Below, piece after piece: positions 30,598 through 31,995 of a stretch of 47,382 bases of DNA. The DNA lies in the IMG/VR virus record IMGVR_UViG_2684623189_000004. One strand, 5' to 3'. This DNA is from a virus (taxonomy: Duplodnaviria; Heunggongvirae; Uroviricota; Caudoviricetes). Position 1 is the stretch's first letter. Each line of letters opens with the position of its first letter. A program made the position numbers and the translations under genes. The notes below the pieces were generated by a model, which was given only the letters and a program-made list of their open reading frames with translations, was not told where the DNA came from and searched no databases.

Positions 30598-31647
30598 TCA
30601 AACGATTAAATCCTGAACTTCCCTGACTGTCTGCTCAAAACGTCCGGTCTCCAGCTCAACACCAATCGCACGACGCCCCAGTGCCATCGCCGCTTTTACC
30701 GTTGAACCCGACCCCATGAAAAAATCCGCAACCAGATCACCAGGACGGCTACTTGCGCTGATTATCTGCTGCAGCATTTCTGCCGGTTTTTCGCACGGAT
30801 GTTTCCCGGGATAGAACTGCACCGGTTTATGCGTCCACACATCGGTATACGGCACCTGCACCGTCACGCCAAAATACCGCCGCAGATGTTTATATTCACT
30901 CAGCAGCTCCGCATACTGCCGGTTCAGTGAGGTATACGTATCCACCAGCTGGTGGTGGAGCTTTTCCAGTTCACCACGCCGATGCTTCTCTTCTGCCACC
31001 CGGGCAAACAGCGCCTGTAATTTCAGATAATCGCTTTCATTCGGTAGCTGCCACTGACTGGCACTGAACCAGTGCGACACCATGTTTTTCTTTCCTGTGG
31101 CATCTGCAATCTGTTTTGCCGTTATCCCCAGGGCCGCGCGCGCATCACGAAAGTAAGAAATCAGCGGGGCCATCACATGCTGTTTCAGTGCACTGCCCTT
31201 CGCCGCATACCCGGCATCTTTCGGACGATACGGCCCCTGATAATGTTCCGCGAACAGAATGCGCTCTGTGGCGGGGAAATACGCCCGCAGGCTTTCCTTG
31301 TTGCATCCGTTCCAGCGTCCGGACGGCTTCGCCCAGATAATATGGTTCAGCACACTGAAGCGTTCACGCATCATGATTTCGATATCAGATGCCAGGCGAT
31401 GACCACAGAACAGGTAAAGACTTCCGGCAGGTTTCAGCACCCGCCAGAACTGCGCCAGACACTGGTCCAGCCACTTCAGGTAATCATCGTCGCCCTTCCA
31501 CTGGTTATCCCAGCCCTCAGGCTTCACTTTAAAGTACGGCGGGTCCGTGACTATCAGGTCAACAGAATTTTCGGGTAACGACCGGATAAATTCCAGGCAG
31601 TCGGCGTTGATTAACTCACAACTGGATATTTTTACAGTATTAAGCAT
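30598..31647 (-). CDS. DNA N6-adenine/N4-cytosine methyltransferase (orphan; no adjacent restriction enzyme)
   Basis: 349 aa; DPPY catalytic motif near N-terminus (LIVTDPPYF); C-terminal SAM-binding-like FFMGSGST. Confidence 0.8.
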   Translation of the reverse strand: MLNTVKISSCELINADCLEFIRSLPENSVDLIVTDPPYFKVKPEGWDNQWKGDDDYLKWLDQCLAQFWRVLKPAGSLYLFCGHRLASDIEIMMRERFSVLNHIIWAKPSGRWNGCNKESLRAYFPATERILFAEHYQGPYRPKDAGYAAKGSALKQHVMAPLISYFRDARAALGITAKQIADATGKKNMVSHWFSASQWQLPNESDYLKLQALFARVAEEKHRRGELEKLHHQLVDTYTSLNRQYAELLSEYKHLRRYFGVTVQVPYTDVWTHKPVQFYPGKHPCEKPAEMLQQIISASSRPGDLVADFFMGSGSTVKAAMALGRRAIGVELETGRFEQTVREVQDLIV

Positions 31648-31797
31648 GGATCATTAAGCCTGTCTCTGATAGGCTCATTCTGCTTTTGCGCAAAGCAGTG
31701 GGCCTGAGGTTTGCTTGTGATCCGGACGCATGAGCAGATGGCTGGTGGGTGCCCCTAACACCCACCAGCCGCCCATTTACCACAAATAAAAAAGCCT

Positions 31798-31995
31798 TCA
31801 CTGCGGAAGGCGTCTGTAACAACCGAACTGATAGTCTGCCAGACCCGCCATAACCAGCTGAGTCAGTATTAACTGGCAGCGTTCGCGTGAAAGGTAAGTA
31901 TTCTGCGCTATCTCCCCGACTGTCGCCGGGTCGGTAACGCTTAATTCATTAAACACCACTCTGGCGGTTTCTGTCATATCCTGCTGTTTTAGCAT
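31798..31995 (-). CDS. hypothetical small protein, possible winged-helix
   Basis: 65 aa between tR' and methyltransferase. Confidence 0.35.
   Translation of the reverse strand: MLKQQDMTETARVVFNELSVTDPATVGEIAQNTYLSRERCQLILTQLVMAGLADYQFGCYRRLPQ

What the first reader, a model, noticed from the sequence alone, without database searches (positions are those of the whole stretch)
30598..31995. Orphan DPPY DNA methyltransferase plus small putative wHTH protein between pR'/tR' and the tRNAs
A 349-aa N6A/N4C-type methyltransferase with no neighbouring restriction endonuclease is placed so that it is expressed only on Q antitermination. It may protect progeny DNA from host restriction or alter host methylation during induction. 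The 65-aa upstream ORF could be a controller-like regulator.
Basis: partly seen in the sequence, partly recalled or inferred. Interest (0 to 1): 0.4.

Follow-up and report, generated by a model that had tools for sequence, protein, structure and literature searches.

The report
Known promiscuous phage methylase, unreported RNA leader
The gene is a close relative of M.EcoGII, a well-studied phage enzyme that methylates nearly every adenine, so the enzyme is ordinary; but a conserved folded RNA, absent from the RNA-family library and not found in my literature searches, sits directly in front of it and probably controls its production.

Summary
ORF 30598..31647(-) is a 349-aa beta-class (DPPY ... 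FxGxG) amino-methyltransferase. ORF 31798..31995(-) is a 65-aa winged-helix protein. Both lie after Q, a lambda-like pR' and tR', and before three tRNAs, with no restriction gene nearby.

The enzyme is not new. It differs at about 15 of 349 residues from M.EcoGII, the characterised non-specific adenine methyltransferase, which is silent in lysogens and toxic when expressed.

The small protein is not a C-protein-type controller. It is a winged helix of unknown role, found beside about two thirds of related methylase genes.

What is new is the 140 nt between the two ORFs (31648..31787, -). This is a structured RNA with a three-way junction plus a hairpin. About 90% of cells pair, against 25-45% when partners are slid. 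18-20 of 30 pairs show compensatory changes, and no shuffle reaches any measure. It always ends at the methylase ATG, which lacks a Shine-Dalgarno sequence. It was followed by this methylase in all 118 evaluable cases of an RNA-first scan. It has no Rfam match.

The best reading is a late-expressed anti-restriction methylase under post-transcriptional control, an architecture like Mu com-mom.

The parts
32220..33041 (-). Q antiterminator gene (273 aa, QuuQ/phage-82 type)
   Evidence: Pfam PF03589 Antiterm, E 2e-49; phrog_127 and phrog_25523 'anti-termination protein Q-like'.
32172..32214 (-). Late promoter pR': -35 TTGATT (32214..32209), 16-nt spacer, -10 TAAATT (32192..32187) preceded by TG, then AACGATGGG (32180..32172)
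   Evidence: Read. Aligns base for base with the lambda sequence just downstream of Q (TTGACT ... TAAATT ... AACGATGGG). That this lambda sequence is pR' with its sigma-70-dependent pause element is my own knowledge. It scores 8 of 12 and so falls below the 9-of-12 threshold of the consensus scan.
32115..32137 (-). tR' intrinsic terminator (CCCGCCGCCTGGCGGG followed by a T run), about 45-65 nt after the predicted start
   Evidence: Terminator scan, 6 G-C pairs. A terminator is present at the same place in SfV, mEp460 and Providencia 117lys.
32015..32055 (-). Conserved block CTTGCTG-N13-AGAGTTA-NN-TGT about 30-70 nt upstream of the small ORF; promoter-like geometry (TTGCTG-17-TAYNTG); function unknown
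   Evidence: Present upstream of the small ORF in nearly all of about 54 distinct loci, from E. coli to Photorhabdus, Xenorhabdus and Providencia. RNAalifold predicts no consensus structure, so it is probably a DNA-level signal.
31798..31995 (-). 65-aa winged-helix protein (phrog_331; named 'TrmB family transcriptional regulator' by NCBI)
   Evidence: ORF list. phrog_331 at E 3e-37, function unknown. 333 homologues. AlphaFold pLDDT 90.9 with an H-H-H-beta-hairpin topology. Foldseek best matches are MarR/OhrR (TMq 0.81), IclR N-terminal domains and winged-helix domains of O-methyltransferases. The start codon is preceded by AAGGAAAAG.
31786..31811 (-). Terminator-like hairpin overlapping the stop codon of the small ORF (GCCTTCCGCAGTGAAGGC followed by a T run)
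   Evidence: Terminator scan. Conserved only in the closest relatives such as 1720a-02, and degraded in SfV and mEp460. It is therefore not a core part.
31648..31787 (-). Conserved structured RNA leader of the methylase gene. P1 31775-31771 with 31703-31699. P2 31770-31759 with 31751-31740. P3 31736-31729 with 31719-31712 (includes conserved C.A and A.C mismatches). P4 31696-31692 with 31686-31682 (GCGC loop). Then GAGCCUAUCAGAG and a weaker P5, 31677-31673 with 31659-31655. It ends at the ATG.
   Evidence: - Covariance model R1 scores 130 bits here and gives one hit per locus, always ending at the methylase ATG, in 64 loci.
- In alignment A5, 89.9% of cells pair against 26-43% when partners are slid; 20 of 30 pairs have double changes; 0 of 500 shuffles reach any measure.
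- In an independent viral set of 56 distinct sequences: 90.6% paired, 18 of 30 pairs, 0 of 500.
- No open reading frame crosses it in 39 of 58 sequences.
- MFE is -65.1 kcal/mol, z = -5.9.
- No Rfam match.
30598..31647 (-). 349-aa beta-class N6-adenine methyltransferase, orthologue of M.EcoGII (DPPY 31545..31534; FxGxG 30723..30700)
   Evidence: - PF01555 at E 4e-43.
- 331 of 349 residues match the machine-read M.EcoGII sequence in the supplement of PMC11551740.
- 15 differences from the near-exact M.EcoGII copy in L143, all within aa 2-278.
- 331 identical residues in a 352-column alignment with phage 1720a-02 (whose annotated protein is 352 aa), named as a homologue in PMC5778455.
- No AGGA, GGAG or GAGG at -18..-4 in 57 of 58 family members.
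30299..30548 (-). Three phage tRNA genes (CAT, annotated ileZ in Stx phages; Arg-TCG argN; Arg-TCT argO), followed by a terminator-like site at 30284..30267
   Evidence: ARAGORN, Rfam tRNA, annotations of homologous Stx phages, terminator scan.

Best explanation
This is the first cassette of the late operon of a lambdoid prophage of extra-intestinal E. coli. It has three parts: a 65-aa winged-helix protein, a 140-nt structured RNA leader, and a 349-aa beta-class adenine methyltransferase of the M.EcoGII clade.

In the lysogen, transcription from pR' stops at tR', so the toxic enzyme is not made. After induction, Q-modified RNA polymerase reads through tR' (inferred from the anatomy). The enzyme then methylates adenines in replicating phage DNA with little or no sequence preference. 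This activity is shown for M.EcoGII and M.EcoGI and inferred here from about 96% identity. Progeny genomes thereby resist many Type I, II and III restriction systems at once.

The structured leader abuts a start codon that has no Shine-Dalgarno sequence. It is the likely point of post-transcriptional control, setting how much or when the methylase is translated. That the RNA is a conserved structure is shown. That it regulates translation is inferred, and its effector is unknown. Candidates are the methylase itself, the winged-helix protein, SAM/SAH, or nothing.

The winged-helix protein is an optional accessory of unknown role.
For: Enzyme identity:
- Pfam PF01555 with motif order DPPY ... 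FxGxG.
- 331 of 349 residues match the published (machine-read) M.EcoGII sequence, and there are 15 differences from the M.EcoGII-type copy in L143. For comparison, M.EcoGI and M.EcoGII differ at 16 residues and both are non-specific (PMC5778455).
- Reconstructed ancestors of the clade all retain DNA and RNA methylation activity (PMC11551740).

Silence in lysogens, toxicity and anti-restriction rationale:
- PMC5778455.

Late-operon placement:
- A pR' that aligns with lambda pR', plus tR'.
- The order Q, small ORF, leader, methylase, holin recurs in SfV, mEp460, phiNP, Hafnia yong2 and Providencia 117lys.
- The order late promoter, terminator, leader, methylase, holin recurs in N15, phiKO2 and PhiR46_1.

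Leader RNA:
- Covariation statistics on two alignments.
- Strict one-to-one position at the methylase ATG.
- An RNA-first scan in which all 118 evaluable hits are followed by the methylase start 22-36 nt later.
- Not protein-coding.
- No Shine-Dalgarno sequence.

Precedent for the architecture (small ORF, regulatory RNA, toxic adenine-modifying enzyme made late):
- Mu com-mom (PMC6483171).
- The com-linked non-specific alpha-class methylases Hin1523, Nme1821 and Hia5 (PMC3299994).
Against: - No activity data exist for this exact protein. All 14 internal differences from M.EcoGII fall in aa 148-278, which is the target-recognition domain and linker, so some specificity cannot be excluded.
- Nothing here shows that the leader regulates anything. 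Helices near the start codon are weakly supported (P5 85% paired; P6 no better than shuffles). RNAalifold finds no conserved hairpin over the ATG.
- Photorhabdus and Xenorhabdus relatives keep only the 5' part of the leader.
- A conserved promoter-like block upstream of the small ORF could give Q-independent expression.
- Protection of phage DNA by this family in a real infection has been inferred but, as far as I found, not demonstrated.
Confidence: 0.75

Rival explanations
1. The 65-aa winged-helix protein is a Com-like translational activator. It binds the leader RNA, for example the P2 hairpin and its flanks, and opens the start region so that the methylase is translated only once the small protein has accumulated.
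For: - The gene order is the same as Mu com-mom and as the com-linked non-specific adenine methylases.
- The small ORF stops 7-14 nt before the start of the leader model in most loci.
- The methylase lacks a Shine-Dalgarno sequence while the small ORF has one.
- Helix 3 (CQLILTQLVMAGL) is nearly invariant across subfamilies that otherwise share only about 50% identity.
- Photorhabdus and Xenorhabdus loci keep both the small ORF and the 5' GUGAAAUG plus P2 part of the leader.
Against: - 21 of 62 loci have the full, high-scoring leader and the methylase but no small ORF within 3 kb upstream.
- The fold is a winged helix, not the CCCC zinc finger of Com. Only two cysteines are conserved.
- The window protein is slightly acidic, with 6 K+R against 7 D+E.
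- In N15 and phiKO2 the only remote homologue (gp51, E 6e-5 to 5e-4) lies upstream of the late promoter.
Confidence: 0.2
2. The 65-aa protein is a DNA-binding transcription regulator of the cassette, which is the first reader's 'controller-like' idea. It would act, for instance, at the conserved CTTGCTG-N13-AGAGTTA block upstream of its own gene.
For: - Winged-helix fold with MarR/OhrR and IclR DNA-binding domains as the best structural matches.
- Sub-threshold TrmB, MarR_2 and HTH_24 Pfam hits, and NCBI's name for the family.
- A conserved non-coding block with promoter-like spacing travels with the small ORF in nearly all lineages and shows no RNA structure.
Against: - It is not a member of the C-protein family: no PF01381 hit, a different fold class, and no nuclease gene to delay.
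- The conserved block is not palindromic, as operators of dimeric winged-helix proteins usually are.
- The protein has no net positive charge.
- It is dispensable in a third of loci.
Confidence: 0.3
3. The 65-aa protein is a partner subunit of the methylase, like PNB-2 of phage PA8. It would give the enzyme a preferred substrate, such as an RNA or particular DNA. The 'non-specific' activity reported for M.EcoGII would then be a property of the catalytic subunit studied alone.
For: - In phage PA8 an upstream winged-helix protein forms a 1:1 complex with an MT-A70 methylase and redirects it to 16S rRNA (PMC10810198).
- M.EcoGII was cloned and purified as the methylase ORF alone, although its native locus type (L143) carries the same small ORF and leader.
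- M.EcoGII methylates RNA.
- Foldseek also matches the winged-helix domains of SAM-dependent O-methyltransferases. That these domains mediate dimerisation in those enzymes is my own knowledge.
Against: - There is no sequence similarity between the two small proteins (E 0.18) or the two methylases, so this is analogy only.
- The two genes are separated by 150 nt of structured RNA rather than being translationally coupled.
- The partner is absent from 21 of 62 loci.
- M.EcoGII alone is highly active.
Confidence: 0.15
4. The leader is a riboswitch-type sensor, for example of SAM or SAH, or an autoregulatory binding site for the methylase itself. It would act without any accessory protein.
For: - It has a three-way junction with highly conserved unpaired nucleotides (J2/3 CAUU, J3/1 GAACC, P2 and P4 loops, and the conserved C.A/A.C pairs in P3).
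- It is kept intact in loci that lack the small ORF.
- The 5' strand of P1 can alternatively pair with the invariant GCCUA next to the start region, 98.7% pairable.
- The enzyme consumes SAM and binds RNA.
Against: - The alternative pairing has no covariation support and is broken in L018, which instead compensates P1.
- No ligand or binding data exist.
- No similarity to any SAM or SAH riboswitch class in Rfam.
Confidence: 0.3
5. The conserved 140-nt spacer is a DNA-level feature, for example a recombination boundary between phage modules or a protein-binding site, and not an RNA.
For: - Lambdoid genomes are mosaics with conserved junction sequences (my own knowledge).
- P4 is a DNA palindrome in many members.
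Against: - Stem sequences change while pairing is kept. For example, the P2 strands GGCUGGUGGGUG/CACCCACCAGCC become CGCAGGACAAG/CUUGUCCUGCG in PhiR46_1.
- 18-20 of 30 pairs have double changes, against about 8-10 in shuffles.
- The element is fixed in register to the start codon.
Confidence: 0.05

Closest known systems
M.EcoGII (and M.EcoGI) of E. coli O104:H4 C227-11, the non-specific adenine methyltransferase (Murray et al. 2018, PMC5778455; GenBank EGT69837.1 per PMC11551740)
   Same: - Same length (349 aa), same beta-class motif order, and about 95-96% identity.
- Prophage-borne (PMC5778455). A locus with a near-identical M.EcoGII copy (L143) has the small ORF and leader directly upstream, as here.
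- Phage 1720a-02, named in the paper as carrying a very similar enzyme, is 94% identical at the DNA level across the whole cassette.
   Different: About 15 substitutions, concentrated in aa 148-278, the target-recognition domain and linker. This copy has never been assayed. The published work did not consider the upstream ORF or the leader.
Bacteriophage Mu com-mom operon, and the com-linked non-specific alpha-class adenine methylases Hin1523, Nme1821 and Hia5 (PMC6483171, PMC3299994)
   Same: A small ORF lies immediately upstream of a toxic, late-expressed, adenine-modifying anti-restriction enzyme. In Mu, translation of that enzyme is controlled through RNA structure at its start site. In the Mu-like prophages the enzyme is likewise a promiscuous adenine methylase.
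   Different: Com is a 62-aa CCCC zinc finger, whereas the protein here is a winged helix with two conserved cysteines. The methylase is beta-class, not alpha-class and not Mom. The RNA is a 140-nt multi-helix element rather than a short hairpin plus an inhibitory stem. The phage context is lambdoid and Q-dependent, not Mu and C-dependent. No functional link between the small protein and the RNA is shown.
M.EcoPA8orf6770P with PNB-2 of Stx phage PA8 (Gong, Chakraborty and Koudelka, PMC10810198)
   Same: A prophage methyltransferase in an E. coli lambdoid phage, with a small winged-helix protein encoded just upstream.
   Different: That enzyme is an MT-A70 family member (DPPW, 208 aa) in the early-left region. 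Its partner is 143 aa. Neither protein is detectably similar to those here.
Controller (C) proteins of restriction-modification systems
   Same: A small helix-turn-helix protein encoded upstream of a modification-system gene.
   Different: C proteins are Xre-type HTH proteins that bind palindromic C-boxes and time nuclease expression. Here the fold is a winged helix, no nuclease is present and no palindromic box was seen.
D12-methyl RNA motif (Weinberg et al. 2017; recalled from memory, a lead only)
   Same: A candidate cis-regulatory RNA found upstream of phage-associated N6-adenine DNA methyltransferase genes.
   Different: That motif precedes alpha-class (D12/Dam-like) methylases and is known from metagenomes. 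No Rfam family of any kind matched this leader at E up to 10, apart from hairpin-level noise.

Membership tests
Beta-class N6-adenine/N4-cytosine DNA methyltransferases (Pfam PF01555) | Profile match above the curated threshold | tested here: met
   148.2 bits against a cut-off of 26.7, covering aa 29-340. Solved relatives include M.RsrI, CcrM, M.MboIIA and DpnA.
Beta-class N6-adenine/N4-cytosine DNA methyltransferases (Pfam PF01555) | Motif order: catalytic (D/N/S)PP(Y/F/W) N-terminal, target-recognition domain central, SAM-binding FxGxG C-terminal | tested here: met
   DPPY at aa 35-38 and FFMGSGST at aa 309-316.
M.EcoGII clade (non-specific adenine methyltransferases of enterobacterial prophages) | Full-length close sequence identity to M.EcoGII or M.EcoGI (which are 333/349 identical to each other) | tested here: met
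   331 of 349 residues match the machine-read published sequence. There are 15 differences from L143, which equals M.EcoGII apart from sites where the machine reading is suspect.
M.EcoGII clade (non-specific adenine methyltransferases of enterobacterial prophages) | Helix-turn-helix four-helix target-recognition domain (aa 160-237) joined by a charged helical linker | tested here: inconclusive
   Only a sub-threshold HTH_3 hit at aa 167-195 (E 0.03). I made no structure model of the methylase. The domain description comes from PMC11551740.
M.EcoGII clade (non-specific adenine methyltransferases of enterobacterial prophages) | Methylates adenine in any sequence context (DNA, ssDNA, RNA) | not testable with these tools
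   Needs expression followed by LC-MS or single-molecule sequencing.
Lambda-type Q-dependent late transcription unit | Q gene, then a promoter with a sigma-70 pause element, then an intrinsic terminator, ahead of the lysis genes | tested here: met
   Q is PF03589. TAAATT-N6-AACGATGGG is identical to lambda. A terminator lies at 32137..32122. Holin, lysozyme and Rz lie downstream.
R-M controller (C) proteins | Xre-type HTH domain (PF01381) | tested here: not met
   No PF01381 hit for the 65-aa protein at E up to 0.1. The predicted fold is a winged helix.
R-M controller (C) proteins | Adjacent restriction endonuclease gene under its control | tested here: not met
   No nuclease gene other than RusA and the terminase lies within 8 kb on either side.
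Mu Com translational activators | CCCC zinc finger | tested here: not met
   Only C40 and C59 are conserved. The model is an H-H-H-beta-hairpin.
Mu Com translational activators | Binds a hairpin in the leader of the downstream modification gene and relieves a translation-inhibiting structure | not testable with these tools
   Only gene order and the presence of a structured leader without a Shine-Dalgarno sequence could be checked.
PNB-2-type methyltransferase partner subunits (phage PA8) | Sequence relationship to PNB-2 | tested here: not met
   BLASTP E 0.18 over 25 residues.
Any described RNA family (Rfam 15) | Covariance-model match at or near the gathering score | tested here: not met
   The best match on the - strand is 16 bits (Magnesium-II, gathering score 40). 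All other matches are hairpin-level.

The most novel reading that the evidence does not exclude
The 140-nt leader (31648..31787, -) is a previously undescribed class of cis-regulatory RNA dedicated to the M.EcoGII family of promiscuous methyltransferases. It occurs wherever this cassette does; the methylase DNA is in about 36% of complete E. coli genomes. It gates translation of a toxic enzyme in response to a factor still to be found. That factor could be the 65-aa winged-helix protein acting like Mu Com, the methylase itself, or SAM/SAH. A corollary is that the enzyme sold and used as 'non-specific' has only ever been studied without its native leader and its native winged-helix neighbour.
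Probability: 0.5. Interest if true: 0.6.

Novelty: new member of a known kind. Interest (0 to 1): 0.4.

Why it matters
The methyltransferase needs no new explanation. It belongs to the family of M.EcoGII, an enzyme already sold and widely used for chromatin and RNA footprinting. Two things follow in practice. Methylome experiments on this prophage should look for dense, motif-free m6A. This cassette should also be counted as a broad anti-restriction function; its methylase DNA is found in 1977 of 5426 complete E. coli genomes.

What could matter more is the control layer, which I did not find described. This is a covariation-supported multi-helix RNA welded to the methylase start codon, often paired with a tiny winged-helix protein. 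If it is a real regulator, it explains how phages carry a gene that is lethal when mis-expressed. It also gives a lambdoid counterpart to Mu com-mom, and it raises the question of whether the native enzyme behaves as the isolated one does.

Tried and rejected
- Rfam on 3.4 kb and again on 181 nt at E up to 10: nothing on the coding strand beyond hairpin noise.
- The leader as a protein-coding ORF (the 60-aa ORF 31640..31822): rejected, because no frame stays open in 39 of 58 relatives.
- Helix P6 (AUCAG/CUGAU next to the ATG): pairing no better than shuffles.
- Alternative pairing UGGGC/GCCUA: pairable but with no covariation, and broken in L018. Kept only as speculation.
- RNAalifold on the plain MAFFT alignment of nine sequences gave a poor structure because the hairpins were misaligned. 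It was replaced by a hand-drawn structure and model-based realignment.
- A conserved hairpin over the start codon or early coding region: none found.
- Homology of the small ORF to PNB-2 of phage PA8 and to lambda orf-64: none.
- Homology of the methylase to the PA8 MT-A70 enzyme: none.
- The exact M.EcoGII sequence: the Murray paper's supplements are not held. I used the machine-read table of PMC11551740, which contains reading errors, and cross-checked it against L143.
- Literature searches with sequence fragments of the leader, and with terms for structured RNAs near phage methylases, found nothing relevant. A search for 'D12-methyl' found no main text with that term.
- A consensus RNA structure for the conserved block upstream of the small ORF: none.
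- I did not model a complex of the small protein with the methylase, because the structure tool takes single chains only.
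Full report
**What is there**

The window is a lambdoid prophage read on the minus strand. The region of interest runs in this order:
- DUF968
- RusA
- Q (32220..33041)
- a promoter and a terminator
- a 65-aa ORF (31798..31995)
- a 150-nt spacer
- a 349-aa ORF (30598..31647)
- three tRNA genes (30299..30548)
- two or three copies of an sRNA-like element
- DUF1737, a P21-type holin, DUF1327, lysozyme and Rz
- Nu1 and the large terminase

No restriction endonuclease is present.

The methylase DNA is 100% identical in UTI89, APEC O1, S88, IHE3034 and ATCC 11775. Related DNA is found in 1977 of 5426 complete E. coli genomes.

**The methyltransferase is a known enzyme**

The 349-aa protein matches PF01555 (E 4e-43). 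DPPY is at aa 35-38 and FxGxG at aa 309-316, which is the beta-class order.

Murray et al. (PMC5778455) described M.EcoGII, also 349 aa and prophage-borne in E. coli O104:H4. It methylates adenine in any context in dsDNA, ssDNA, DNA:RNA hybrids and RNA. It is silent in the lysogen and harmful when constitutively expressed. The authors inferred that it protects phage DNA from restriction.

They name phage 1720a-02 as carrying a very similar enzyme. That phage is my second-best DNA hit, 94% identical across the cassette. Its methylase has 331 identical residues in a 352-column alignment with the window protein.

Two comparisons with M.EcoGII agree:
- The M.EcoGII sequence printed in the supplement of PMC11551740 is machine-read and contains some reading errors. 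It matches the window protein at 331 of 349 positions.
- An IMG/VR locus, L143, equals that sequence except at sites where the reading is suspect. It differs from the window protein at 15 positions. Fourteen of these lie between aa 148 and 278, the target-recognition domain and linker.

M.EcoGI and M.EcoGII differ at 16 positions and are both non-specific. Reconstructed ancestors of the clade all methylate DNA and RNA.

I therefore file the window protein as an M.EcoGII-clade enzyme. I expect non-specific adenine methylation, though this copy has not been assayed. No motif is the expected positive result.

**Placement in the late transcript**

The sequence just after the Q stop codon is TTGATT-16 nt-TAAATT-TGCTCT-AACGATGGG. 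It aligns with the lambda sequence just downstream of Q in the -35, the -10 and the AACGATGGG element. From my own knowledge, that lambda sequence is pR' and AACGAT is the sigma-70-dependent pause element used by Q.

A strong intrinsic terminator follows at 32137..32122.

The same order recurs widely:
- Q, terminator, small ORF, spacer, methylase, holin in SfV, mEp460, phiNP, Hafnia phage yong2 and Providencia phage 117lys.
- Late promoter, terminator, spacer, methylase, holin in N15, phiKO2 and PhiR46_1.

One caveat applies. A block reading CTTGCTG-N13-AGAGTTA-NN-TGT lies about 30-70 nt upstream of the small ORF (window 32015..32055). It is conserved from E. coli to Xenorhabdus, has promoter-like spacing and has no predicted RNA structure. 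If it is a promoter, expression need not depend only on Q.

**The small protein**

It belongs to phrog_331, of unknown function. It has 333 detectable homologues, which NCBI names TrmB-family regulators.

The AlphaFold model has pLDDT 90.9 and shows three helices and a beta-hairpin. Its closest folds are MarR/OhrR (TMq 0.81), IclR N-terminal domains and the winged-helix domains of O-methyltransferases. The 'winged HTH' call is therefore right.

It is not a C-protein. It has no Xre-type HTH, there is no nuclease to time, and I saw no palindromic box.

A family HMM gives this distribution:
- It finds the protein directly upstream of the leader in 38 of the 62 loci that have leader and methylase. 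In three more (N15, phiKO2, PhiR46_1) it finds only the weak gp51 match described below, giving 41 of 62 in all.
- It finds it in 22 Photorhabdus and Xenorhabdus loci that have a reduced leader.
- It finds it only weakly, as gp51, in N15-type phages, where the gene lies upstream of the late promoter.
- Twenty-one loci have the leader and methylase without it.

It is a frequent but dispensable companion. Three roles remain open:
- A transcription regulator.
- A Com-like translational activator. The architecture matches Mu com-mom and the com-linked non-specific methylases of Mu-like prophages (PMC6483171, PMC3299994).
- A PNB-2-like partner subunit, as for the unrelated MT-A70 methylase of phage PA8 (PMC10810198). 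There is no sequence similarity to that pair.

M.EcoGII was characterised from the methylase ORF alone. Its native type of locus carries the same small ORF and leader.

**The spacer is a structured RNA**

The 138-153-nt spacer is more conserved than the small ORF that precedes it. It is also present where that ORF is absent.

It is not coding. No frame is open in 39 of 58 distinct sequences.

By inspection it forms these elements:
- P1, UGGGC with GCCCA. L018 carries a compensatory A-U pair.
- P2, a 12-bp hairpin. Its sequence is entirely replaced in N15-type phages while pairing is kept.
- P3, an 8-bp hairpin with two conserved C.A and A.C mismatches that become C-G and G-C in Hafnia and Providencia phages.
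- P4, a hairpin with a GCGC or GUGCAC loop.
- An invariant GAGCCUAUCAG.
- The ATG.

I built a covariance model from 40 sequences with this structure. It finds exactly one hit per locus in the window and in 63 of the 90 related loci searched. Each hit ends at the methylase ATG, with E from 1e-40 to 2e-11.

Pair counts support the structure on two alignments:

| Measure | Alignment A5 | Independent viral set, 56 distinct sequences |
|---|---|---|
| Cells paired | 89.9% | 90.6% |
| Cells paired when 3' partners are slid | 26-43% | 25-45% |
| Pairs with changes on both sides | 20 of 30 | 18 of 30 |
| Same, in shuffles | about 9.5 | about 8.3 |
| Shuffles reaching any measure | 0 of 500 | 0 of 500 |

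Both alignments were fitted to the model, which favours the structure. However, the compensatory replacements are visible in the raw sequences.

The independent viral set came from an RNA-first pattern scan. That scan returned 120 hits. In all 118 evaluable hits, the methylase start lies 22-36 nt after the pattern.

Other observations:
- The methylase start has no Shine-Dalgarno sequence. AGGA, GGAG or GAGG occurs at -18..-4 in only 1 of 58 sequences.
- Helices next to the start are weak. P5 is 85% paired, and P6 is not supported.
- Rfam 15 has no match.
- Literature searches by sequence and by topic found no description. From memory, the nearest published idea is the D12-methyl motif upstream of alpha-class methylases.

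**Mechanism and confidence**

Shown:
- The identity of the enzyme family.
- The late-operon anatomy.
- The existence, conservation and exclusive linkage of the structured leader.
- The winged-helix fold of the small protein.

Inferred:
- Non-specific activity of this copy.
- Q-dependent expression.
- Anti-restriction benefit.
- Translational control by the leader.

Unknown:
- What the leader responds to.
- What the small protein does.

**Verdict**

The finding as written is a correct observation of an already characterised kind of enzyme, and on that basis it is of low interest. The regulatory claim about the small ORF is not supported in the form given. The region nevertheless contains an RNA element that is not in Rfam and that I did not find described, with strong comparative support. 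This raises the overall interest to moderate.

Noticed in passing
window 29546-29755 (-), 30033-30223 (-), and weakly 29821-29994 (-): Two strong matches (161 and 136 bits, gathering score 47) and one weak match to Rfam RF02076 STnc100, a gammaproteobacterial sRNA. They lie in tandem between the phage tRNAs and the lysis genes, where Stx phages carry stx, and each ends in a terminator-like hairpin.
   Followed up: no
window 32015-32055 (-): The block CTTGCTG-N13-AGAGTTA-NN-TGT upstream of the small ORF is conserved from E. coli to Photorhabdus, Xenorhabdus and Providencia. It has promoter-like spacing (TTGCTG-17-TAYNTG, with G instead of the usual final T) and no predicted RNA structure. It could be a Q-independent or activator-dependent promoter, or an operator.
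   Followed up: partly
window 31648-31655 (-) and the homologous position in related loci: A GATC (Dam) site sits 3-4 nt before the methylase ATG (consensus CUGAUCYAUG) in most family members, but not in N15, phiKO2 or Hafnia yong2. Mu mom, the functional analogue, is regulated through Dam sites. No test was made.
   Followed up: no
L062-L090 (Photorhabdus and Xenorhabdus loci), about 100 nt upstream of the methylase ATG: These relatives (methylase about 65% identical) keep the small ORF, the upstream conserved block and only the 5' part of the leader (GUGAAAUG plus a P2-like hairpin plus CAUUCGCC). They lack P1, P3 and P4 and are missed by the covariance model.
   Followed up: partly
L007 2006-2233 (N15 gene 51) and L006 2003-2230 (phiKO2 gp51): The 75-aa winged-helix protein gp51 of N15-type linear-plasmid prophages is a weak match to the small-ORF family (E 6e-5 to 5e-4 in a small search space). 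It lies upstream of a partition site and the late promoter rather than next to the leader.
   Followed up: partly
L025 2558-2797 and L026 2558-2797 (Kosakonia sacchari and a 'Vagococcus' contig): In these loci a 79-aa cysteine-rich protein with several CxxC pairs occupies the place of the winged-helix ORF, ending about 64 nt before the leader. A zinc-ribbon protein at this position would be closer to Mu Com.
   Followed up: no
window 31786-31811 (-): A terminator-like hairpin with a T run overlaps the stop codon of the small ORF, just upstream of the leader. It is intact only in the closest relatives.
   Followed up: partly
window 32172-32214 (-) versus Q at 32220-33041 (-): The late promoter is lambda-like in its -10 and pause element (identical TAAATT ... 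AACGATGGG). The Q protein, however, is of the PF03589 (phage 82/Qin) family with a DnaJ-like zinc-finger region, not lambda Q.
   Followed up: no
genome loci L026, L033, L079, L019 (record titles): Several loci with enterobacterial-type cassettes come from assemblies labelled Vagococcus, Chryseobacterium, Pseudomonas lundensis and Geobacteraceae. This most likely reflects contamination or mis-binning of those assemblies, not true host range.
   Followed up: no
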